Shown: one piece after another, positions 1-8,390 of the stretch
Numbering within the stretch: position 1 is the first letter of the stretch
Layout: every line of letters begins with the position of its first letter
Virus record (IMG/VR): IMGVR_UViG_2713896900_000009
DNA length: 15,634 nt
Reading direction: 5' to 3' (one strand)
DNA from: a virus
Taxonomy: Duplodnaviria; Heunggongvirae; Uroviricota; Caudoviricetes
Translations under genes and position numbers: made by a program
Notes under the pieces: generated by a model
What the model was told of the DNA's origin: nothing
Seen by the model: only the letters and a program-made list of their open reading frames with translations
The model's database searches: none

Positions 1-426
1 TTACTGAGGACGTTGAAGAAATCCGTACTGAGCGAGTGTCAGAACAATGTCATAAGACCCTTGCCTGTCTTTATAGCAAGTTTTATCAACTAACTCAGCT
101 TTGCTGATTCCGGGCAAATCAAGAATCAGATTCGCAACTTCAATTGCCCTTTGGTACAACTTACCGACCTTTCTCTCCCCATGCTGTGGTTTTACATTCT
201 TCAGATAACCGCTATCCGCCAGAGCGAGAAACGTTGCCCTTGGGCATCCTTTCTTTCTTGCCGATTCGCTTTCTGTAACCTCAGCGACAGCAGCCTCCCA
301 TGCATCACGAGGGGATAATGAATTATCAGCAACCAAATAATAAGCAATTAAAGCAGCACGCGCGTATTGAGACATAATGCATCCATATACAAAAATCTTA
401 TGGTAAGACTTTTCTAATATGAACAC
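1..426 (-). CDS. Hypothetical protein immediately downstream of the lysis cassette (141 aa; alternative start at Met18, coordinate 375)
   Basis: Complete ORF in the six-frame track with its stop at 1-3. Same strand as the lysis genes and overlaps the Rz stop by 13 nt. No family recognised from the translation and no obvious Shine-Dalgarno for either candidate start. Confidence 0.4.
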   Translation of the reverse strand: MFILEKSYHKIFVYGCIMSQYARAALIAYYLVADNSLSPRDAWEAAVAEVTESESARKKGCPRATFLALADSGYLKNVKPQHGERKVGKLYQRAIEVANLILDLPGISKAELVDKTCYKDRQGSYDIVLTLAQYGFLQRPQ

Positions 427-881
427 TGTGATCTCACATACTCTTGCAGGCCATTCAATTGGTTAGTTATGGTTTCAATGCGCTCTCTGAGAACGAAATA
501 ATCCCGTTGAGCGGTGTCAGTAAGTCTGGGGCTGGAGCCATCATCCACGCCGGAGGCGGCGGTGATTTTATGCATGTCGGGACAGACTGCTTTGACGCGC
601 AGCCACTTACGGCCAGCAGAAACATCAGCACGGAGACTTTCGATAGTCGCGTTAGCATCAGCAAGCTCCTTTGTATATCTGGCGTCAAGTTCTGCTACGT
701 CACGTTGACGCTTCTGCATATCAGAGAGCGTCGCCATAGCCGAATCTAATGCCATTGCGTTTTCGTCGCGCTGCTTTTTGTATTCAATGGCTTTATTGTG
801 GTAATGATTCGCTGAAAAGATAAAAGAACCAATGACAGTAACGAAGAAAGCAGCGATAACCAACTTATAGCTCAACTTCAT
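414..881 (-). CDS. Rz: Rz-type inner-membrane spanin (i-spanin)
   Basis: 155-aa translation has an N-terminal hydrophobic anchor (LVIAAFFVTVIGSFIF) and is alignable by eye with lambda Rz as I recall it (NHY..AI.YK.QRD.NA; RQRDVAALDAKYTKELADA; IKAVC; ASGVD...SPRL.DTA.RDYF.LRER). It sits directly after the R endolysin on the same strand. Confidence 0.8.
   Translation of the reverse strand: MKLSYKLVIAAFFVTVIGSFIFSANHYHNKAIEYKKQRDENAMALDSAMATLSDMQKRQRDVAELDARYTKELADANATIESLRADVSAGRKWLRVKAVCPDMHKITAASGVDDGSSPRLTDTAQRDYFVLRERIETITNQLNGLQEYVRSQCSY
467..658 (-). CDS. Rz1: Rz1-type outer-membrane lipoprotein spanin (o-spanin), embedded in the +1 frame inside Rz
   Basis: The track ORF 467..688 translated from internal Met11 gives MLTRLSKVSVLMFLLAVSGC ASKQSV..C.K.PPPPAWMM.P.PD..TPLNGIIS. 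That is a signal peptide plus lipobox (VSGC) and a proline-rich mature part, matching lambda Rz1 as I recall it. It lies wholly inside the Rz reading frame. The start is assigned by analogy; the in-frame ATG at 688 is the alternative. Confidence 0.7.
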   Translation of the reverse strand: MLTRLSKVSVLMFLLAVSGCASKQSVPTCIKSPPPPAWMMAPAPDLLTPLNGIISFSESALKP

Positions 882-1680: not shown

Positions 1681-1757
1681 TTCGTCATCTCTCACCTCGC
1701 GATTATTTGCGGGTGCTGTGTTGGAAATAAAAAGGCCAAGCAACGTGGCCACCAGAA

Positions 1758-2810
1758 TTATTTCCCCACCAGTTCACTTACCTCTTTCACCGTCTGGTTA
1801 AACCGATCTGACTCAAGCTCAACACCTAACGCCCGACGCCCCAGCGCCATTGCTGCTTTTATTGTGGAACCGGATCCCATAAAGAAATCAGCAACCAGAT
1901 CGCCTGGTCGACTACTGGCATTAATTATTTGCCGGAGCATATCCGCCGGTTTCTCACACGGATGTTTACCCGGGTAGAATTGAACGGGTTTATGCGTCCA
2001 GACATCGGTATAAGGCACGGAGACTGATACGGAGAAATAGCGCCGGAGAGATTTAAATTCATCCAGCAATTCAGAATATTTGCGGCTCAGCGACTCATAA
2101 GTCGCCACCAGCTGGTGGTGTGAATGTTCCAGTTGATTGCGCTGAAACTTCTCTGCCGCAACGCTGGCAAACAACGCCTGCAACTTCTGGTAGTCCGCCT
2201 CGTTCGGTAATTGCCACTGACAGGCACCGAACCAGTGGGACACCATGTTTCTCTTTCCAGTAGCTTCGGCTATCTGCTTTGTCGTTATGCCCAGATCAGC
2301 ACGTGCATTCCGGAAATACGAAATCAGCGGCGCCATGACGTGCTGTTTAAGCTCTCGTTCTTTCGCCGCATAGCCGTCATCTTTAGGCCGGTATGGCCCC
2401 TGATAATGTTCCGCGAACAATATGCGTTCTGTGGCAGGAAAATACGCCCGCAGGCTTTCTTTATTACACCCGTTCCATCGTCCGGATGGTTTCGCCCAGA
2501 TGATATGATTAAGCACGTTGAAACGTTCACGCATCATGATTTCAATATCAGATGCCAGGCGATGTCCGCAGAACAGGTAAAGGCTTCCAGCTGGTTTCAG
2601 TACCCGCCAGAATTGCGCCAGACACTGGTCCAGCCATTTCAGGTAGTCTGCGTCCCCTTTCCACTGATTGTCCCAGCCGTTTGGCTTCACTTTGAAATAC
2701 GGCGGATCGGTAACAATAAGGTCAACGGAGTCATCAGGCAGGGACTGGATAAAATGCAGGCAATCAGCGTTGATTAACTCAACACTGTTTATTTTTACAG
2801 TATTTTTCAT
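1758..2810 (-). CDS. DNA methyltransferase, beta-class N6-adenine/N4-cytosine type (apparent orphan, no adjacent restriction gene seen)
   Basis: 350-aa translation has the catalytic motif IV DPPY near the N-terminus (LIVTDPPYF) and the SAM-binding motif I FxGxGS near the C-terminus (DFFMGSGST), the circular-permuted beta-class order. It is the first large gene of the late-strand block upstream of the holin. Confidence 0.8.
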   Translation of the reverse strand: MKNTVKINSVELINADCLHFIQSLPDDSVDLIVTDPPYFKVKPNGWDNQWKGDADYLKWLDQCLAQFWRVLKPAGSLYLFCGHRLASDIEIMMRERFNVLNHIIWAKPSGRWNGCNKESLRAYFPATERILFAEHYQGPYRPKDDGYAAKERELKQHVMAPLISYFRNARADLGITTKQIAEATGKRNMVSHWFGACQWQLPNEADYQKLQALFASVAAEKFQRNQLEHSHHQLVATYESLSRKYSELLDEFKSLRRYFSVSVSVPYTDVWTHKPVQFYPGKHPCEKPADMLRQIINASSRPGDLVADFFMGSGSTIKAAMALGRRALGVELESDRFNQTVKEVSELVGK

Positions 2811-2960
2811 AGATCAGTAAGCGTAACTCTGGTAGGCTCACGCTGCTTTTGCGCTAAAGCAGTGGGCCATGGTTCGCTTGTGACCAGTTAGCATGAGCGA
2901 ATGGCTGGCAGGTGCTACCAACACCCACCAGCCGCCCATTTTCACAGCAGGAAACCGCCA

Positions 2961-3164
2961 TTACTGGCAGCGTCTGAATTTATTCCCATACCCGCCGTTA
3001 TCCTTCGCCAGACCCGCCAAAACTAACTGCGTCAGTATCAACTGACACCGGGCTTCGCTTACCCCGGTAATACTCGTCATCGCACGGGGCGTTATCCACT
3101 TGTCAGCAGGTAAGAAATGAAGGACTGTGGCGGCGGTTTCTGTCATATCTTGCTGTTTTAGCAT
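2961..3164 (-). CDS. Small hypothetical protein (67 aa), possible helix-turn-helix fold
   Basis: ORF from the track with a plausible ribosome-binding site (AGGT about 8 nt upstream of the ATG at 3164). The segment ITPRAMTSITGVSEARCQLILTQLVLAGL is helix-turn-helix-like. No family recognised; could be spurious. Confidence 0.3.
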   Translation of the reverse strand: MLKQQDMTETAATVLHFLPADKWITPRAMTSITGVSEARCQLILTQLVLAGLAKDNGGYGNKFRRCQ

Positions 3165-3284
3165 GTCTTTTTACCTTTTCTGGTTAACCTGACACACCAA
3201 TAACTCTTGTCTAAAAAGCCAGCAAGATAAAAAGTCGGTATTCACCTCCACCAGCACGTTTACTGTACTGGACCGCTTTTTGGC

Positions 3285-3311
3285 ACAAAAAAACCCGCTC
3301 GGAGGCGGGTT
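3285..3311 (-). terminator. Intrinsic terminator oriented for minus-strand (late-direction) transcription; candidate tR'-like site
   Basis: Read on the - strand: GC hairpin (CCCGC/GCGGG stem, 3293-3308) followed by a run of seven U (plus-strand A-run 3285-3291). On the + strand the same hairpin has only three T after it. Confidence 0.5.
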
Positions 3312-3423
3312 TAAGCTGTGTGGCGAAGTAACCACTCTTAACACAATACAATAGTTTTTGCGTACGCGTTAGCATTTTTGTTAAAGTATAAAAATGTAAT
3401 TAAACCAGTATGTTATCACTACA

Positions 3424-4308
3424 ATGAAATGCATCCGAAAACATCCAGCAATAGCTTATACAGTAATTATTTTAGTTTTTGCCTTAATATACAATTTCAC
3501 TTGGAGCGTCAATCCAGATTCTTTCATTAAAAACAACGTTCTCAACTCTACACCTGTATATGATGCCGTTAATTTAGCATATGCGAACAATGAGGTAAAA
3601 AAAGAAGATCCTGTCAGTGTTTCGAGGGAAGTATTTGCAGAGCAAATTTTAACACTTACAAATCAATTCAATAAGATAATAATTGAAAACTTAGAACTTG
3701 AAAAAACATTATCTCAACAGCAAGAAAAATTAAAACAAATTAGTGAAAGACAATCAATAAAGTGGGGCGAAAACACCAAAAAATACATAGCAGACAGTTT
3801 GAAAGATTTACACAAAACGCTTATCACTAAAAATAGTGAACGTACTGCCATAACATCTTTAAAAAACAAAACAAATGAAAGTCAGATTAACATTATGCTG
3901 GCCGACAAAGATGAAGAAATAGCCAAAATAAACCTTGAAATAGCGTATAAAGAAAATGATGCTAATGTCTATATCTTATCTCATGTCGGCGACTTTAACG
4001 ATCCAATAATCGTTAATGAGCTTGACGCAATCAATAAAGAAATTGAGAAAACAAGAACAAAAATAATAAACAATAAAAAGAAAATAATGGAGATAAGGAA
4101 TAAATCTCAATCTATGCTGGAGAAACTCAAAAAAGATGACCTTAACTTTTGGGATTTCTTATTTTATAGCATAGGAATATCTACAACGACCACCTTTGGT
4201 GATTTGTTAGCAAATTCAAGACTTATCAGACTGATAGTTTGCGTGCAACTTTTACTATCAATTATAGTTTTAGCTAACGTAACTCAAAGGTTTTTATCAA
4301 AAAAATAA
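3424..4308 (+). CDS. AT-rich cargo (moron) gene encoding a membrane protein: N-terminal transmembrane segment, long Lys/Glu/Asn-rich predicted coiled-coil, C-terminal pore-loop-like two-helix module. Function unknown
   Basis: 294-aa ORF on the strand opposite to every neighbouring phage gene. Composition is visibly far more AT-rich than the flanks, with AAA/AAT/ATA codons dominating. N-terminal hydrophobic stretch AIAYTVIILVFALIY. C-terminus FWDFLFYSIGISTTTTFGDLLANSRLIRLIVCVQLLLSIIVLA resembles the pore-helix, filter and inner-helix of a K+ channel (for example the KcsA region LWWSVETATTVGYGDLYPVT) but with a non-canonical filter. Hairpin terminators flank it on both sides. There is no strong Shine-Dalgarno upstream. 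Confidence 0.6.
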   Translation: MKCIRKHPAIAYTVIILVFALIYNFTWSVNPDSFIKNNVLNSTPVYDAVNLAYANNEVKKEDPVSVSREVFAEQILTLTNQFNKIIIENLELEKTLSQQQEKLKQISERQSIKWGENTKKYIADSLKDLHKTLITKNSERTAITSLKNKTNESQINIMLADKDEEIAKINLEIAYKENDANVYILSHVGDFNDPIIVNELDAINKEIEKTRTKIINNKKKIMEIRNKSQSMLEKLKKDDLNFWDFLFYSIGISTTTTFGDLLANSRLIRLIVCVQLLLSIIVLANVTQRFLSKK

Positions 4309-4343
4309 AAAACAAAGCCCTCAAAAATGAGGGCTAATTTAAA
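4309..4343. terminator. Bidirectional intrinsic terminator between the convergent moron and Q genes
   Basis: Perfect 8-bp hairpin AGCCCTCA-AAAA-TGAGGGCT (4316-4335). On the - strand it is followed by a long T-rich tract (TTGTTTTTTATTTTTTT), on the + strand by AATTT. Confidence 0.6.
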
Positions 4344-4345
4344 CC

Positions 4346-4705
4346 TTAAGATAAGAACGATAAAATCCCGTCCAAAAATCCTAGTGCAGTTTGAAGTTCT
4401 TTTCTGACAGTACCATCTGAACATTTTCGTTTCTTTGCGATTGTACGGAGTGAAATACCAATAACAAAGTGAGCAATTAATAATTCATATTCTTCTGGTT
4501 TATATTTACGCAACCGCGCCACACAACCGTCTATCATGATCCCTTCATCATCATCACACTGAAGGCGTGTTTTTTTACCATGAGGTAAAAGCCCCTTGAA
4601 ACCAGCCGCTATCGGCTGCCAGTCCACACCGCTGTTATCTGCTGCTGCCCATGCTCCCCAGCGGTCTAACACCTCGTACATATCACGCATCAAATCTCTC
4701 CACAA
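4346..4705 (-). CDS. Q: Late-gene antiterminator Q (phage 82 / QuuD-like family)
   Basis: 119-aa translation matches my recollection of the E. coli prophage Q homologue QuuD and the phage-82 Q family (LDRWGAWAA; IAAGFKGLL; QCDDDEG..IDGCVARLRK; KCSDGTVRK; Cys-rich motifs). It sits between the nin-like block and the lysis genes. Confidence 0.75.
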   Translation of the reverse strand: MWRDLMRDMYEVLDRWGAWAAADNSGVDWQPIAAGFKGLLPHGKKTRLQCDDDEGIMIDGCVARLRKYKPEEYELLIAHFVIGISLRTIAKKRKCSDGTVRKELQTALGFLDGILSFLS

Positions 4706-4707
4706 AA

Positions 4708-5703
4708 TCAGGCCAGCACACCAATTGCCAGCGCGCGATCGATAAATCGAAAAATCAGCTCCAGTTGGGAACCATACTTCTCTTCAAACGCCACGGTGTC
4801 CGCATGCAGCTCGTCGTGATGCTTTCTGCACAATGGCAACACAAAGAGGTCATGCGCTTTTGTACCCATTCCACCCTGACCGTGACCTATCAGGTGATGG
4901 GGATCATCAGCAGGCTTTCCACAACATGCACACGGCTGCCTCTTAACCCAGCGCGTGTACTTTTCATTAACCCAGCGGCGGCGTTTTGGGCGTAACATAA
5001 AAGACTCCGGCGACTCCGGATCCACTTTCAGCGCCAGCACCTTTTTCGCTTTATCCTGGATGATGCTGGTGGCAGGAACCGAAGGCACAAGGTCACTTTC
5101 CCGGGTGACAGACGGCACAACAGGTTTCGGTAATCTCAGCGCCTTACGGGCTGCGCTTTCAGGTAAGGCATCCGCCAGGTCATTACGAATCAGCCACCAG
5201 CACAGTTCCGGCATTGTCACGGCATGGTTATCATCAAAACCGAGATCCCGACGGACTACAGACAACACCCAGCGGGCACAGTTATCCGTTGCCATTGATT
5301 CCAGCCGTTCCGTGAACTGATCGCGCAGCTGGTTATCGCAGTGCCAGCACAGACGGATTGCTCCCGGAGCGTGTCGCATTGTGGTCATGTTCTCGCTGTG
5401 CCAGTCGGAATGAGGCCACTGGCAGCCTTTTTCACGAAGTAACCAGCTTTCAAGACATTCCACGCCACCAGCACGACGGATCACAGCCTCATTGCGGAAC
5501 ACGGCCCGAACGGCTGGATCATCCGCCAGCGGTTGTGATGCCGCCGGAACGGCACCACTGGCGAAAGATGAATAACGTTCCGGCTCAGGCTCCAGCAGGA
5601 CACGCCCCTGCATAAACAGGGGCATCAGCTCTGAACCTGGTCTGAACAATACGATCCCCATACGCGGGGCAATTTCAGGGGTCAGTAGTGCTCTCACGGT
5701 CAC
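4708..5703 (-). CDS. DUF968-family prophage protein (YdfU-like) with a C-terminal Cys/His HNH-like motif
   Basis: 331-aa ORF packed 2 nt from Q and 2 nt from the upstream gene. The C-terminus CACCGKPADDPHHLIGHGQGGMGTKAHDLFVLPLCRKHHDELH is a Cys/His cluster typical of DUF968/HNH-like proteins of lambdoid nin regions. Assignment is from recollection. Confidence 0.55.
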   Translation of the reverse strand: MTVRALLTPEIAPRMGIVLFRPGSELMPLFMQGRVLLEPEPERYSSFASGAVPAASQPLADDPAVRAVFRNEAVIRRAGGVECLESWLLREKGCQWPHSDWHSENMTTMRHAPGAIRLCWHCDNQLRDQFTERLESMATDNCARWVLSVVRRDLGFDDNHAVTMPELCWWLIRNDLADALPESAARKALRLPKPVVPSVTRESDLVPSVPATSIIQDKAKKVLALKVDPESPESFMLRPKRRRWVNEKYTRWVKRQPCACCGKPADDPHHLIGHGQGGMGTKAHDLFVLPLCRKHHDELHADTVAFEEKYGSQLELIFRFIDRALAIGVLA

Positions 5704-5704
5704 C

Positions 5705-6514
5705 TCAATGAACGGTATCGAGCAGCTTTAACAGCTCAGGGAATCGGGATTCGAAGAAATGCGGCTGCGTCTCGCGCGGATTTGCGGGACTGGTGATGTT
5801 CTTGCCGAACATGCAGCCTTTCGCTGTCAGCGACCAGAATTTTTTGATGTTGTTAATCGCGGTACGGCTGTATCGTTCGCGCTGCTCGACGATCCCCAGC
5901 TTCACCATCTGGTGATATGCCTGATTAGCCGTCAGGCGGATACCATACTGTTTCAACAGTGCACTCAGTGACAGTGTCGGGCGACTTGAGCCATCGTGTG
6001 CATCAGCAGGAGCATCAATGGCATAGCGTGGTGCCAGATTCGGTAAGCCAACAGCCTCCTGGAGTTTCTGACAGGCCCCAAGCACAGATGAGTTAGACAG
6101 GTTTAACTCCCGGCGCATAAAGTCCAGCAGAATCACGCCAGCCTGCATCTTGTCAGCAGCCTGCCCGGATAATTTTTCCGGTGCGCTGGTTACCATATCG
6201 AAAGTACGGATCACCTTCAGATGGAATGACGGGCTGATCCACATTGCATAGGCATACACCAGTTCCTTGCAGACATAAGTTCCCCGTTCATTTCCACCAT
6301 GAATCACACTCACCGGGTCAACACCCAAATTCTGGGTGTTGGTCAATTCATGAACAAGTTCAACAGTTTGTTGGCTGGAAAGAAACTTTCCTGGCTCCTT
6401 GGTTCTGGCATTTGCACCAAATGCTACTGCTGCGCGATGCAGATCGTTCAGGCTGTAACGCCCATAAGCATCACGACGAACTTCAATACCATCAATGACC
6501 ATCAGATTATTCAT
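5705..6514 (-). CDS. KilA-N domain antirepressor-like protein (start at internal Met with strong ribosome-binding site; track ORF extends to 6616)
   Basis: Translation from MNNLMVIDGIEVRRDAYGRYSLNDLHRAAV ... TYVCKELVYAYAMWISPSFHLKV fits the KilA-N domain pattern. The C-terminal half is AntA/KilA-C-like. AGGAG lies 8 nt upstream of the ATG at 6512-6514. Confidence 0.7.
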   Translation of the reverse strand: MNNLMVIDGIEVRRDAYGRYSLNDLHRAAVAFGANARTKEPGKFLSSQQTVELVHELTNTQNLGVDPVSVIHGGNERGTYVCKELVYAYAMWISPSFHLKVIRTFDMVTSAPEKLSGQAADKMQAGVILLDFMRRELNLSNSSVLGACQKLQEAVGLPNLAPRYAIDAPADAHDGSSRPTLSLSALLKQYGIRLTANQAYHQMVKLGIVEQRERYSRTAINNIKKFWSLTAKGCMFGKNITSPANPRETQPHFFESRFPELLKLLDTVH

Positions 6515-6533
6515 ACTTCGTTTCTCCTCTTGA

Positions 6534-6923
6534 TCAGGCGGCTGCACCCGCCGTTTTCTCGTACTTACTGATAGTGATCTCGACCTTCCCTCCCGGGATA
6601 ACCGGTCCCCACTCAACCAGCATTCTTTTCACCTGACTGTCGTCTTCCCACACACCCGCATGGGTCGGGGCGTCAAACAGCGCCTTGTTATAGTTGTCCA
6701 GATCGCGGATCCGGTTATCCGGAGGAAACAACACGATCTCCACTGAAGCAGGTGCCGACGTTGGTTTCGGCAGGCGACGTAACTGCTCAACTATTGCTGC
6801 GCACGCCGCGCTCTGGAATTTGCGCCCCGCTGCGCTTATCAGACTCTTACCAGCAAACGCCCCTTTGTTGGGGTGTCGCCAGTACGTGTTCACGCTGGGC
6901 GGGAAAGGCAAGATCAGCTTCAT
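6534..6923 (-). CDS. rusA: Holliday-junction resolvase RusA
   Basis: 129-aa translation carries the RusA signature as I recall it from E. coli RusA (PPSVNTYWRH; RDLDNYNKALFDAPTHAGVWEDDSQV; VEITI). Typical nin-region position. Confidence 0.75.
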   Translation of the reverse strand: MKLILPFPPSVNTYWRHPNKGAFAGKSLISAAGRKFQSAACAAIVEQLRRLPKPTSAPASVEIVLFPPDNRIRDLDNYNKALFDAPTHAGVWEDDSQVKRMLVEWGPVIPGGKVEITISKYEKTAGAAA

Positions 6924-7246
6924 ACTTTCAGGCCCCTCTCATGTAACCAGTGGGCTGCACGCAGCCTGGCGTTTTCCTCACCGGCAAGCAGTGCGCGGAT
7001 AATCCCGACCGCCTCGCTGTCGTCGTCCTTCACCGCGGTATGAAGCGTTATCCCCCGGGCCACGCCACGCTTTATCGTGATGACGCCTTTTTTCTCCAGT
7101 GCACGAAGATGCTCTACCGCTGCATTCACTGAACGGTATCCCAGCATGGTTGCCACCTCCTGATTGGTTGGCGGAAAGCCACGCTCTTTCTGGTAAGAAA
7201 TCAGCATATCCAGCACCTGCTGCTGGCATTGAGTTAACGTCGTCAT
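6920..7246 (-). CDS. LexA N-terminal DNA-binding-domain-like protein lacking the S24 autoprotease domain
   Basis: 108 aa. The N-terminus aligns by eye with the LexA DNA-binding domain (LT..QQ.V.D.I.....G.PPT..E.A..LG.RS.NAA.EHL.AL..KGVI.I..G..RGI.L). No Ala-Gly cleavage site or Ser/Lys peptidase domain follows. Start overlaps the stop of the upstream methyltransferase gene by 4 nt. Confidence 0.5.
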   Translation of the reverse strand: MTTLTQCQQQVLDMLISYQKERGFPPTNQEVATMLGYRSVNAAVEHLRALEKKGVITIKRGVARGITLHTAVKDDDSEAVGIIRALLAGEENARLRAAHWLHERGLKV

Positions 7247-7896
7247 GCCGCCATCTCCCTGACCAGTTTTTCCGCCTGCTGGCGAACCTGCGCCAGAAAG
7301 GCCTCACCACATGCCTCAAGTTCATCGCGCCCGATGTAGCTGATTGTCGGTCCCTTCCAGGTCTTGTCGAAAACAGCAATAGCACCAGCGAAGAACGCTC
7401 CTGTCGGCACCTGCTTCTCGTCCTTCGGGATAAACCAGGCAGGCAGTTCAAAACCAATACGCCCGCGAATAAAAGCAATATGGTCCGCATCTTCCGGCCA
7501 CCACACTTCGCTGGTGGCAGCTTTGATCAGGAAAACATAGCGCCCGCCCTTATCACGCATGGCACTGGCATGTTTCATGATGTAACGCATGCCGGTGATG
7601 TATTGCCCCTCATGCTGACTGGCGCGGCTGTATGGAGGATTTCCAAAGGCAGCACCTTTAAGCTCCGCAAGACGTTCTGACCAGTCATGCGCCAGCGCGT
7701 TGTCTTCCGCCGTGTAATACGCGGCGCATTTGGCGTTATCACCGTCAGTAAACAGATCCAGAACAAACGGGCCAAACAGGGTGTTAATTCCCCAGAAAAT
7801 GTTGTCCGGTGTGCGCCACTGATCGCCCACTTCCTTCAGTTCATGGGCTGGTTTGTTTCGCAACTCCACCAGCGCCTGGCAATATTTATTACTCAT
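7243..7896 (-). CDS. Phage Dam-like DNA N6-adenine methyltransferase (start at internal Met; track ORF extends to 7929)
   Basis: Catalytic NPPY motif (AAFGNPPYS) and overall resemblance to the small phage N6-adenine methyltransferase family of lambdoid nin regions. The ATG at 7894-7896 overlaps the upstream gene's stop in a TAATG arrangement. Confidence 0.7.
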   Translation of the reverse strand: MSNKYCQALVELRNKPAHELKEVGDQWRTPDNIFWGINTLFGPFVLDLFTDGDNAKCAAYYTAEDNALAHDWSERLAELKGAAFGNPPYSRASQHEGQYITGMRYIMKHASAMRDKGGRYVFLIKAATSEVWWPEDADHIAFIRGRIGFELPAWFIPKDEKQVPTGAFFAGAIAVFDKTWKGPTISYIGRDELEACGEAFLAQVRQQAEKLVREMAA

Positions 7897-8390
7897 TAAG
7901 CCCCCACGTAATTCCCTGACAGATACCACTCATCACCCGATACAGCGCGCTTGCTGCTTTTCCGTAAGCACCGCTCACGACGTGCCAGAAAATTGTTTCG
8001 TTCTGGCTGGGAGTGGCTTTCACGGAATGCCGCCATCCACACCGTTGCAGCACGACGGTATAAGCCCCTTGACTCCAGTTCTTCAGCCTGGCGGGTCAGG
8101 CACAAAATCACCCGGGGATCGTTAGTGCCGACATAGAAATTGCGCACAGGTCTGGTTTCACGAACTGGTTGTGGTTCCGGCTCCTGCGCTCTCTCAGTCA
8201 GGCGCGGGAAATGTCTGCGTGTATCTCCTTCACAACGGTGAGCCACACGCCCACTCTGACGTAACTTGCTTGCTGACTGCAGAACGCGCTGCCGTGAGTA
8301 ACCTGCAAAAGCATCCGCAATGTCTCCGGAAGTACACCCCGGATGGGCTTCAATGAATTTCTGAACTTCATTCAAAAGACTCATAATCAC
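7896..8390 (-). CDS. PerC-like putative transcriptional regulator with an N-terminal winged-helix-like region
   Basis: 164 aa. The C-terminal segment TRQAEELESRGLYRRAATVWMAAF resembles the PerC/Pch family core (..LE..GLWRRAA..W..). The start overlaps the replication gene's stop. Assignment is from memory and weak. Confidence 0.4.
   Translation of the reverse strand: MIMSLLNEVQKFIEAHPGCTSGDIADAFAGYSRQRVLQSASKLRQSGRVAHRCEGDTRRHFPRLTERAQEPEPQPVRETRPVRNFYVGTNDPRVILCLTRQAEELESRGLYRRAATVWMAAFRESHSQPERNNFLARRERCLRKSSKRAVSGDEWYLSGNYVGA

What the first reader, a model, noticed from the sequence alone, without database searches (positions are those of the whole stretch)
1758..7896. Two distinct DNA methyltransferases in one prophage, one at the head of the late operon
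Seen in sequence: a 350-aa beta-class methyltransferase (DPPY near the N-terminus, FxGxGS near the C-terminus, with a long intervening region that could be the target-recognition domain) lies between the Q region and the holin, and a separate Dam-like NPPY methyltransferase lies in the nin-like block (7243-7896). No restriction endonuclease gene is seen next to either. Inference: these are orphan, self-protective methyltransferases against host restriction; the late-operon one would be expressed with the lysis and structural genes. Target specificities are unknown.
Basis: partly seen in the sequence, partly recalled or inferred. Interest (0 to 1): 0.4.

Follow-up and report, generated by a model that had tools for sequence, protein, structure and literature searches.

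The report
Two common orphan prophage adenine methyltransferases
Both methyltransferase genes are real but ordinary: the late one is a close relative of M.EcoGII, the known enzyme that methylates adenine in any sequence, the other is a common phage Dam-family gene, and the only unexplained feature is a conserved structured RNA leader in front of the late gene.

Summary
Both genes are intact at the stated coordinates.

- **Late gene:** ORF 1758-2810 (-) is a beta-class PF01555 methyltransferase. It is 82% identical to M.EcoGII, the characterised non-specific adenine methyltransferase, and 88% identical to the reconstructed ancestor Anc291, which methylates DNA and RNA. Non-specific m6A can therefore be predicted from homology.
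- **Early gene:** ORF 7243-7896 (-) is a TIGR01712/PF05869 phage N6-adenine methyltransferase. It is the intact form of K-12 yfdM and only 31% identical to the GATC enzyme M.EcoVT2Dam.
- **Frequency:** they occur in 1595 and 2120 of 5426 complete E. coli genomes. Stx2c phages and phage PhiR40_1 carry both.
- **No nuclease partner:** no restriction gene lies nearby.
- **Position:** the late gene is second, not first, after a Q-linked pR'-like block and the tR' terminator. A conserved 67-aa winged-helix ORF and a 150-nt leader precede it.
- **Leader:** it has no Shine-Dalgarno sequence, no Rfam match and no annotation. It is more conserved than the coding sequence, shows compensatory base changes, and pairs with the region just before the start codon.

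The finding itself is already known. The leader is a modest new lead.

The parts
1758..2810 (-). M.EcoGII-family beta-class N6-adenine DNA methyltransferase, 350 aa (DPPY 35-38, FMGSGS 309-314)
   Evidence: PF01555 at 145.6 bits. 82% identical to M.EcoGII, 88% to Anc291, 70% to SUPREM. 92-93% identical to the SfV orf48, mEp460 and cdtI phage methylases. The exact sequence is WP_059274659.1 of Escherichia albertii.
2811..2960 (-). Conserved, non-coding, structured 5' leader of the methyltransferase gene; no Shine-Dalgarno sequence; conserved CTGATCTATG at the start codon
   Evidence: One covariance-model hit per locus, always abutting the methyltransferase ATG, in 52 sources. 13 of 30 pairs carry compensatory changes against 5.3 +/- 1.3 in shuffles. 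A start-region helix that was not in the model is 91% paired. Leader identity 84% against 73% for the coding sequence, higher in 45 of 47 species. 97-99% identical and unannotated in 1064 E. coli genomes. No conserved upstream ORF. No Rfam hit.
2961..3164 (-). 67-aa stand-alone winged-helix protein (phrog_331; sometimes annotated as a TrmB-family regulator), first ORF after tR'
   Evidence: Found directly upstream of the methyltransferase in about 58 of 80 species loci. AF2 pLDDT 88, fold H-H-H-beta-beta. Best fold matches are Zalpha (TM 0.85), the SelB mRNA-binding winged helix, and IclR/TrmB DNA-binding domains. No Pfam, NCBIfam or PADLOC family.
3285..3312 (-). tR'-like intrinsic terminator (AAACCCGCC..GAGCGGGTTT followed by a T run)
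   Evidence: Terminator scan. Invariant stem shared with PhiR40_1, WP7-S17 and Ayreon.
3313..3381 (-). Candidate late promoter pR' and Q-utilisation region (-10 TATTGT at 3343-3348; weak -35 CTAACG at 3367-3372)
   Evidence: This block is shared only by phages with the same Q type and differs in Ayreon, which has another Q. In species loci it co-occurs with Q proteins at least 79% identical, even when Q lies about 2.4-2.7 kb upstream. The promoter assignment itself is inferred; it fell below the consensus scan threshold.
3424..4308 (+). AT-rich (31% GC) opposite-strand moron inserted between Q and pR', encoding a K+-channel-family membrane protein (TTTTFGD pore motif)
   Evidence: GC profile. 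Ion_trans_2 hit at residues 239-290. Homologues are named 'potassium channel family protein' across Enterobacterales, and a 100% identical protein exists in E. coli. Other cargo occupies the same site in WP7-S17 and PhiR40_1.
4306..4335 (-). Terminator hairpin immediately after the Q stop codon, back to back with the end of the moron
   Evidence: Terminator scan.
4346..4690 (-). Antiterminator Q (114 aa from the ATG), PF06530, distantly related to Q21
   Evidence: PF06530 at 152.5 bits. PDB 6jnx/6p18 Q21, E 5e-4. Homologues of 114 aa in L086-L088.
7243..7896 (-). Phage N6-adenine methyltransferase of the TIGR01712/PF05869 (T1/VT2 Dam) family, 217 aa, intact form of K-12 yfdM; in the delayed-early nin-like block
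   Evidence: 31% identical to M.EcoVT2Dam. 99% identical copies in Stx2c phages and PhiR40_1. Present in 2120 of 5426 E. coli genomes.
1724..1750 (-). Terminator-like hairpin in the methyltransferase-holin spacer
   Evidence: Terminator scan. A terminator is annotated at the equivalent place in phage Ayreon.
414..1680 (-). Lysis cassette: lambda-family holin (1345-1680), endolysin (865-1341), Rz (414-881)
   Evidence: PF05106 and PF03245 hits. Homologue annotated as glycoside hydrolase family 24.

Best explanation
The window is the early, nin and lysis part of a lambdoid prophage of Escherichia. The exact proteins are on record from E. albertii and E. coli. It carries two unrelated orphan adenine methyltransferases that would be made at different times.

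(1) The 217-aa TIGR01712/PF05869 enzyme lies in the rightward delayed-early operon, between the replication genes and Q. It would be made while the phage replicates. By family it is most likely a GATC (Dam-type) methylase, but this is weakly supported.

(2) The 350-aa enzyme belongs to the M.EcoGII family and is predicted to convert adenine to N6-methyladenine in essentially any sequence context. It lies on the late strand behind a Q-type-specific pR'-like block and the tR' terminator. The order is 67-aa winged-helix ORF, 150-nt structured leader, methyltransferase, terminator-like hairpin, holin, endolysin, Rz.

Proposed working:
- In the lysogen, late transcripts stop at tR', so the toxic enzyme stays silent.
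- After induction, Q-modified RNA polymerase reads through. The enzyme is made together with the lysis and packaging functions and heavily methylates adenines in progeny DNA just before packaging.
- The next host's adenine-sensitive restriction systems then fail to cut that DNA.

Shown here: gene identities, motifs, order, terminators, family membership, how common the genes are, and the absence of a nuclease partner. Inferred: non-specific activity (by homology), the exact pR' position, the timing, and the protective benefit.
For: Identity of the late enzyme:
- 82% full-length identity to M.EcoGII, 92% in the N-terminal catalytic part and 74% in the target-recognition domain.
- 88% to Anc291 and 70% to SUPREM. 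M.EcoGII and SUPREM are themselves only 70% identical.
- PMC5778455 shows M.EcoGII methylates adenine in any DNA context. PMC11551740 reports M.EcoGII and its variants as largely non-sequence-specific on RNA (nanopore) and gives DNA and RNA methylation rates for Anc291 and SUPREM.

Behaviour of the family: PMC5778455 reports M.EcoGI/II as prophage-borne, unexpressed in the lysogen and deleterious when expressed constitutively. M.EcoGII-methylated DNA resisted 12 six-cutters and 6 four-cutters. The review PMC12707154 says the same.

Context:
- Conserved order DUF968 - Q - (morons) - orf67 - methyltransferase - lysis in 80 species loci and in phages SfV, mEp460, cdtI, Ayreon and PhiR40_1.
- In a Stx2a phage the order is Q - orf65 - methylase (94% identical to M.EcoGII) - tRNAs - stx2AB.
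- A terminator lies at 3285-3312, and the block upstream of it tracks the Q type.

Dam-family enzyme. GATC specificity of M.EcoVT2Dam is stated in PMC6602927.

No nuclease partner.
Against: - There are no biochemical or expression data for this locus.
- The target-recognition domain differs from that of M.EcoGII at 20 of 78 positions, so some sequence preference cannot be excluded.
- The proposed pR' has a weak consensus (-35 CTAACG, -10 TATTGT) and was not called by the promoter scan.
- The methyltransferase start codon has no Shine-Dalgarno sequence and is predicted to be base-paired, so the protein yield is unknown.
- The window does not include the structural genes of this prophage, and it diverges from its closest relatives to the left of position 599. 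The element could be defective.
- The Dam-family enzyme is only 31% identical to the nearest characterised GATC enzyme. GATC methylation adds little in a dam+ host.
- Heavily methylated DNA could become a target of m6A-dependent type IV restriction enzymes (the topic of PMC11037411, which was listed but not read).
Confidence: 0.8

Rival explanations
1. The 350-aa enzyme is a site-specific orphan methylase with its own, still unknown, recognition sequence. This is what database annotation implies ('site-specific DNA-methyltransferase').
For: The target-recognition domain is only 74% identical to that of M.EcoGII. Small changes in such domains can switch specificity in other methyltransferase families (remark in PMC6602927). 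NCBI names include 'site-specific'.
Against: M.EcoGII and SUPREM are only 70% identical to each other, and the paper reports M.EcoGII and its variants as largely sequence-independent on RNA. The window protein is closer to M.EcoGII (82%) and to Anc291 (88%) than those two are to each other. The name is a generic label from automatic annotation.
Confidence: 0.1
2. One or both methylases belong to a restriction-modification system whose nuclease lies elsewhere in the prophage or genome.
For: The window covers only part of the prophage. The DUF968 protein (4708-5703) has a weak HNH-like hit. An HNH gene lies next to the terminase in related prophages.
Against: No restriction-enzyme model hit any neighbour. 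The same gene order without a nuclease recurs in 80 species and in many sequenced phages. DUF968/YdfU is a standard lambdoid nin-region gene. The terminase-adjacent HNH is, from general knowledge of HK97-like phages, a packaging factor. A nuclease cognate to a non-specific methylase is hard to conceive.
Confidence: 0.03
3. The methylases serve the phage's own replication, packaging or gene control, or host takeover, rather than evasion of restriction. Examples would be Dam-type marking of a pac or cos region or of replication origins, or global m6A of host DNA and RNA by the late enzyme to shut the host down.
For: P1 needs Dam methylation at pac (PMC12707154). Overproducing K-12 YfdM, the remnant of the Dam-family gene, boosts a T1-type phage (bioRxiv 10.1101/413146). 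[quoted passage not shown]
Against: There is no direct evidence for this locus. Late timing, just before lysis, leaves little time for host reprogramming to matter. M.EcoGII-modified DNA is demonstrably resistant to restriction in vitro. The roles are not mutually exclusive.
Confidence: 0.25

Closest known systems
M.EcoGII (and M.EcoGI) of E. coli O104:H4 C227-11, the non-specific beta-class adenine methyltransferase (Murray et al. 2018, PMC5778455)
   Same: Same length class (350 against 349 aa) and the same order of DPPY, target-recognition domain and FxGxG. 82% identity. Prophage-borne and orphan. Close relatives of M.EcoGII occupy the same slot after Q, with the same leader and small ORF.
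   Different: 63 substitutions, 20 of them in the 78-residue target-recognition domain. Activity was not measured. This allele is recorded from E. albertii.
M.EcoVT2Dam and phage T1 Dam (PF05869/TIGR01712 phage Dam family, GATC)
   Same: Same HMM family above curated cutoffs, NPPY motif, small size, nin-region location in a lambdoid phage.
   Different: Only 31% identity over 144 residues to M.EcoVT2Dam, and about 40 residues longer. The yfdM/ST64B-type subfamily has no published specificity that I could find.
Hia5, Hin1523 and Nme1821, non-specific adenine methylases of Mu-like prophages (Drozdz et al. 2012, PMC3299994)
   Same: Prophage-encoded, non-specific m6A, proposed anti-restriction function in place of Mom.
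   Different: Different architecture: FxGxG first, DPPY near residue 194. Not homologous in domain order to either enzyme here.
Phage Mu Mom
   Same: A broad-spectrum adenine modification that is toxic, silent in the lysogen, made late, and tightly controlled at both transcription and translation (control details from general knowledge; silence and toxicity from PMC12707154).
   Different: Different chemistry (acetamido-adenine) and an unrelated protein. The controls known for Mom (Dam- and OxyR-dependent transcription, Com-activated translation) have no demonstrated counterpart here. The winged-helix ORF plus leader is only a candidate analogue.
tR'-terminated short late RNAs of lambdoid phages (lambda 6S RNA, StxS; PMC7547250)
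   Same: A constitutive late promoter followed closely by a terminator, upstream of accessory cargo and the lysis genes.
   Different: Different Q type and sequence. The predicted short RNA is about 50 nt and was not mapped here.

Membership tests
M.EcoGII family of beta-class N6-adenine methyltransferases | PF01555 domain with beta-class order: DPPY (motif IV) N-terminal, central target-recognition domain, FxGxG (motif I) C-terminal | tested here: met
   (145.6 bits). DPPY at 35-38 and FMGSGS at 309-314.
M.EcoGII family of beta-class N6-adenine methyltransferases | [quoted passage not shown] | tested here: met
   82% overall, 74% in the target-recognition domain, no indels within it. 88% to Anc291 and 70% to SUPREM.
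M.EcoGII family of beta-class N6-adenine methyltransferases | Methylates adenine in any sequence context (DNA, single-stranded DNA, RNA) | not testable with these tools
   Inferred only, because the protein is closer to M.EcoGII and Anc291 than M.EcoGII is to SUPREM (PMC5778455, PMC11551740).
M.EcoGII family of beta-class N6-adenine methyltransferases | Prophage-borne orphan, silent in the lysogen, toxic when expressed | tested here: inconclusive
   Prophage context and orphan status are met. Silence is suggested by the position behind tR'. Expression and toxicity cannot be tested here.
Phage N6-adenine methyltransferase, TIGR01712 / PF05869 (T1/VT2 Dam family) | HMM scores above curated cutoffs over the full model, and an NPPY catalytic motif | tested here: met
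   TIGR01712 at 254.9 against 97.05, 165/165 positions. PF05869 at 155.9 against 28.1. GNPPYS present.
Phage N6-adenine methyltransferase, TIGR01712 / PF05869 (T1/VT2 Dam family) | GATC specificity | not testable with these tools
   Only 31% identity to the GATC enzyme M.EcoVT2Dam. No published specificity found for the yfdM-type subfamily.
Type II restriction-modification system | A cognate restriction endonuclease gene adjacent to the methylase | tested here: not met
   No nuclease model hit the neighbours. None in the +/-10 kb of 96.8%-identical prophages apart from a terminase-associated HNH.
Q-dependent lambdoid late operon | Q antiterminator gene, a Q-specific pR'/qut region, a tR' terminator, and downstream late genes on the same strand | tested here: inconclusive
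   Q (PF06530) is met. The terminator is met. The block upstream of the terminator co-varies with Q type. Promoter activity and transcription start were not mapped, and the hexamers are weak.
Any Rfam RNA family (for the 150-nt leader) | Covariance-model match at the gathering threshold | tested here: not met
   No hit at gathering score in the whole window. No hit within 2811-2960 even at E <= 5.

The most novel reading that the evidence does not exclude
The methyltransferase genes of the longer-leader class (Enterobacteriaceae, Erwiniaceae, Proteus, Morganella) are all preceded by a roughly 150-nt structured RNA leader that no Rfam model matches and RefSeq does not annotate. About three quarters of the 80 species loci also carry a small stand-alone winged-helix protein upstream.

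The leader has no Shine-Dalgarno sequence. Its 3' arm (CGCUU..UGAUC, positions -16 to -4) pairs with an upstream segment that can alternatively form hairpin P3.

The novel reading is that this is a new cis-regulatory RNA that gates translation of a toxic non-specific methylase. It would hold the enzyme to a low dose or a defined late moment, in the way Com controls Mom in phage Mu. The winged-helix protein may be its trans-acting partner.
Probability: 0.35. Interest if true: 0.5.

Novelty: already known. Interest (0 to 1): 0.25.

Why it matters
The two methyltransferases themselves add little. They are among the commonest accessory genes of Escherichia lambdoid prophages, and the late one belongs to a family that is already a commercial reagent.

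Three points have practical value:
- Genome annotation calls this family 'site-specific', which is misleading.
- Motif-based methylome analysis will miss its activity, so total m6dA or per-read m6A density is needed.
- The gene sits in the same Q-controlled slot as Shiga toxin genes, so its product should rise with toxin on induction.

The conserved leader and small winged-helix ORF are present in about a fifth of complete E. coli genomes. If they prove functional, they would explain how phages keep a genome-wide methylase harmless until late. They might also offer a compact switch for controlling toxic genes.

Tried and rejected
- **PDB search with the 350-aa protein.** It found only generic beta-class methylases (8urk/9c3u, M.RsrI, CcrM), which say nothing about specificity.
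- **PDB search with the Dam-family protein.** Nothing found.
- **tRNA scan.** None in the window, so this is not the tRNA-stx arrangement of Stx phages.
- **Rfam at gathering and permissive thresholds.** Nothing in the leader. There were only weak terminator-driven hits (isrK, Trp leader) around tR'.
- **Leader as a small coding ORF.** Rejected: the reading frame from the conserved ATG is broken in most species.
- **Leader hairpin P2 as a plain terminator.** In Xenorhabdus and Photorhabdus a hairpin followed by a T run occupies this spot. In Enterobacteriaceae no T run follows it and the scan called no terminator there.
- **Default RNAalifold on the MAFFT alignment.** It gave a poor consensus because of register shifts in P2. 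I replaced it with hand-drawn helices, per-sequence folding and a covariance-model alignment.
- **PADLOC and Pfam on the K+-channel moron, DUF6979 and DUF968 proteins.** No defence system or restriction enzyme found.
- **Literature searches for the specificity of the yfdM-type Dam subfamily and for phage PhiR40_1.** Nothing decisive.
- **GATC count in the window.** 60 observed against 61-71 expected, which is uninformative.
- **M.EcoGII sequence source.** It was taken from a machine-read supplement and contains reading errors, for example NHHIW where natural relatives all have NHIIW and RRRA where they have RRA. Identities to it are therefore slight underestimates.

Full report
**What the window is.** It is the integrase-to-lysis part of a lambdoid prophage. 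From right to left on the minus strand the genes are:
- integrase, and yfdP/Q/R-like genes on the plus strand;
- a cI-like repressor, Cro and CII-like genes;
- an O-like replication protein;
- yfdN/PerC, the Dam-family methylase, a LexA DNA-binding-domain protein, RusA, a KilA-N protein and DUF968;
- Q;
- an AT-rich gene on the opposite strand;
- a small ORF and the 350-aa methylase;
- holin, endolysin and Rz.

The exact 350-aa protein and the exact 67-aa protein next to it are recorded from Escherichia albertii as consecutive RefSeq accessions. The Dam-family protein and the opposite-strand gene product have exact copies in E. albertii and E. coli.

**Observation check.** Both methylase ORFs are real and intact.
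- ORF 1758-2810 (-) scores 145.6 bits on PF01555. It has DPPY at residues 35-38 and FMGSGS at 309-314.
- ORF 7243-7896 (-) scores 254.9 bits on the NCBIfam equivalog TIGR01712 (cutoff 97.05) over the whole model. It scores 155.9 bits on PF05869 and has GNPPYS.
- The mechanical ORF extends to a GTG at 7929. Annotated homologues start at the ATG and are 217 aa.
- No neighbouring ORF matches a restriction endonuclease in Pfam, NCBIfam or PADLOC.
- Prophages 96.8% identical to the window continue past Rz into small ORFs, a terminase-associated HNH, TerS, TerL, portal, protease and capsid genes, with no restriction gene.

**Identity of the late enzyme.**
- The M.EcoGII sequence printed in the supplement of PMC11551740 aligns end to end with the window protein at 82% identity. 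[quoted passage not shown]
- The reconstructed ancestor Anc291 is 88% identical and SUPREM (Anc284) 70% identical. M.EcoGII and SUPREM are themselves only 70% identical.
- M.EcoGII methylates adenine in any DNA context, reaching up to 99% of dA in vitro and 86% in vivo. It blocked all 12 six-cutters and 6 four-cutters tested. It also acts on single-stranded DNA and RNA (PMC5778455).
- PMC11551740 reports M.EcoGII and its variants as largely sequence-independent on RNA and gives DNA and RNA methylation rates for Anc291 and SUPREM.
- The window protein is closer to M.EcoGII and to Anc291 than M.EcoGII is to SUPREM. Non-specific m6A is therefore the well-supported prediction, though it is untested for this allele.
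- The printed M.EcoGII sequence carries machine-reading errors (NHHIW where natural relatives have NHIIW), so the identities are slightly understated.

**Identity of the early enzyme.** It belongs to the phage Dam family that includes T1 Dam and M.EcoVT2Dam. The latter is stated to target GATC (PMC6602927).
- It is only 31% identical to M.EcoVT2Dam over 144 residues and is about 40 residues longer.
- Its close relatives are ST64B (70%) and the K-12 CPS-53 remnant yfdM.
- The one functional report on yfdM is a preprint in which overproducing YfdM boosts a T1-type phage. It contains no methylation data.
- GATC is therefore a family-level guess, not a result.

**How common the genes are.**
- The late gene matches 1595 of 5426 complete E. 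coli genomes. It is 92-93% identical at the protein level to genes of phages SfV (orf48), mEp460, cdtI and Ayreon, and 84% to those of Stx2c phages.
- The early gene matches 2120 of 5426 genomes, nearly all at 95% identity or more.
- Phage PhiR40_1 and the Stx2c-converting phages carry both genes in the same order as the window.
- The late family occurs across Enterobacterales, with 59-88% identity in 80 species genomes from Escherichia to Proteus, Morganella, Photorhabdus and Xenorhabdus.
- Two methylases in one prophage is therefore the normal state of a large group of lambdoid phages.

**Position in the late operon.** The Q gene (PF06530, distantly Q21-like) ends at 4346.
- A terminator hairpin and a 31%-GC gene on the opposite strand follow immediately. 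That gene encodes a K+-channel-family membrane protein.
- Related prophages carry different cargo at this same site.
- Downstream of the insert lies a strong terminator (3285-3312). Everything from this terminator to the methylase start is nearly invariant among four phages.
- The roughly 70 nt upstream of the terminator are shared only by the three phages with the same Q. They differ in Ayreon, which has another Q.
- Across species loci, this block is found just upstream of the methylase module wherever Q is at least 79% identical, even when Q lies about 2.4-2.7 kb away.
- This is the behaviour expected of a Q-specific pR'/qut region followed by tR'. I assign -10 TATTGT (3343-3348) and a weak -35. 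PhiR40_1 has TTTACA and TATGCT at the aligned positions.
- The consensus scan did not call the window promoter, so its exact position is inferred.
- A second terminator-like hairpin lies between the methylase and the holin. One is annotated at the same place in Ayreon.
- A relative 94% identical to M.EcoGII in a Stx2a phage sits in the same slot: ydfU - Q - orf65 - methylase - tRNAs - stx2AB.

**Likely mechanism.**
- In the lysogen, transcripts from pR' end at tR'. This fits the report that M.EcoGI and M.EcoGII are not expressed in C227-11 and that constitutive expression harms the cell. The review PMC12707154 says the same.
- After induction, Q lets RNA polymerase read through tR' and the later hairpins.
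- The enzyme then methylates adenines in progeny DNA shortly before packaging and lysis. This limits harm to the phage's own transcription and replication.
- Progeny DNA should resist adenine-sensitive restriction in the next host. M.EcoGII-treated DNA resisted every such enzyme tested in vitro.
- The Dam-family enzyme, in the delayed-early operon, would act during replication. Its benefit may be protection, packaging or replication control; the data do not discriminate.

**The leader (noticed beyond the finding): conservation.** The 150 nt between the small ORF and the methylase ATG (2811-2960) are non-coding.
- The ORF starting at its conserved ATG is interrupted in most species.
- The region is 97-99% identical in 1064 E. 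coli genomes, none with an annotated feature there. By contrast, the best E. coli match to the methylase coding sequence is 90.8%.
- In 47 species the leader averages 84% identity to the window against 73% for the coding sequence. It is the more conserved of the two in 45 of them.
- A covariance model built on it finds exactly one hit per locus, always ending at the methylase ATG, in 52 sources. These include loci where other genes have replaced the small ORF. It finds none in VT2-Sakai, which lacks this methylase.

**The leader: structure.**
- On the model alignment, 13 of 30 pairs show changes on both sides, against 5.3 +/- 1.3 in shuffles and 2-5 in slid controls.
- Hairpin P2 keeps 11-14 pairs through different sequences, for example GGGTG/CACCC, GGATG/CATCC and AAAGTG/CACCTTT.
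- One P3 pair occurs as CG, AU, UA and UG.
- P4 almost always has exactly one of two alternative extension pairs, in 27 of 31 sequences, and never both.
- A long-range helix was not part of the model. It joins GGUCA..AAGCG to CGCUU..UGAUC just 5' of the AUG. It is 91% paired in 52 sequences, against 19-41% in slid controls, and appears in the minimum-free-energy folds of the E. coli-type and Proteus leaders.
- Its 5' arm overlaps P3, so the two structures exclude each other.
- No Shine-Dalgarno sequence precedes the ATG.
- No Rfam family matches.
- Caveats: the sequences are related, the model alignment leans toward the modelled helices, and the Morganellaceae lineage contributes many of the changes.

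**The small ORF.** The 67-aa ORF (2961-3164) has a plausible ribosome-binding site.
- Homologues (41-67% identical) lie directly upstream of the methylase in about 58 of 80 loci.
- AlphaFold2 gives a confident (pLDDT 88) minimal winged helix. Its best fold matches are Zalpha domains, the SelB mRNA-binding domain and IclR/TrmB DNA-binding domains, so it could bind DNA or RNA.
- It is absent from several loci that keep the leader, so it is not indispensable.

**Verdict.** The finding is already known and of low interest. The conserved leader, with or without the winged-helix protein, is the only element here that is not explained by existing descriptions.

Noticed in passing
window 2811-2960 (-): A 150-nt non-coding leader sits directly upstream of the M.EcoGII-family gene. 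It is more conserved than the coding sequence (84% against 73% across 47 species, and 97-99% identical in 1064 E. coli genomes). It has covarying hairpins and a helix that sequesters the start region. It has no Shine-Dalgarno sequence, no Rfam match and no annotation.
   Followed up: yes
window 2961-3164 (-): A conserved 67-aa stand-alone winged-helix protein (motifs MLKQQDMTE and RCQLILTQL) is the first ORF after tR'. It is paired with the methylase in about three quarters of species loci. No family is assigned, and some records call it a TrmB-family regulator.
   Followed up: partly
window 3424-4308 (+): An AT-rich (31% GC) opposite-strand gene encodes a membrane protein with a coiled coil and a K+-channel-like pore (TTTTFGD). 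It is inserted between Q and the late promoter block. Homologues are spread through Enterobacterales, and no PADLOC defence model matches it.
   Followed up: partly
window 3313-4345; L001 4055-5793; L004 11573-12373: The interval between the Q stop codon and the Q-linked pR'-like block is a cargo insertion site that holds unrelated genes in related prophages. This separates Q from its presumed target by up to about 2.7 kb in some species. Shiga toxin genes, by contrast, lie downstream of tR'.
   Followed up: partly
window 1724-1750 (-): A terminator-like hairpin (GGCCACGTTGCTTGGCC followed by a T run) lies in the 77-nt spacer between the methylase and the holin. With tR' upstream, the methylase module is bracketed by terminators.
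   Followed up: no
L049-L081 (Photorhabdus and Xenorhabdus loci), about 80-104 nt before the methylase ATG: In these genera the spacer between the small ORF and the methylase is shorter. It consists mainly of a covarying GC-rich hairpin followed by a T run, a canonical-looking terminator. The covariance model built on the longer Enterobacteriaceae-type leaders (which also finds the Proteus and Morganella leaders) does not detect it.
   Followed up: partly
window 2811-2820 (-): A GATC overlaps positions -7 to -4 of the methylase start codon (CTGATCTATG) in nearly all leaders of the longer class. It forms the 3' arm of the predicted start-region helix. In Proteus the 5' arm also contains GATC.
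   Followed up: no
window 1-598: Left of about position 599 (inside Rz) the window diverges from its closest relatives. It carries a DUF6979/phrog_5039 ORF (1-426) instead of their small ORFs, so whether this prophage is complete cannot be judged from the window.
   Followed up: partly
window 1758-2810 (-), database names: Public annotation calls this protein family 'site-specific DNA-methyltransferase (adenine-specific)', although its characterised member is non-specific.
   Followed up: yes
window 6920-7246 (-): A 108-aa protein consisting only of a LexA-type DNA-binding domain, with no protease domain. Its gene overlaps the stop of the Dam-family gene by 4 nt. It is conserved in the same position in related phages, and its role is unknown.
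   Followed up: no
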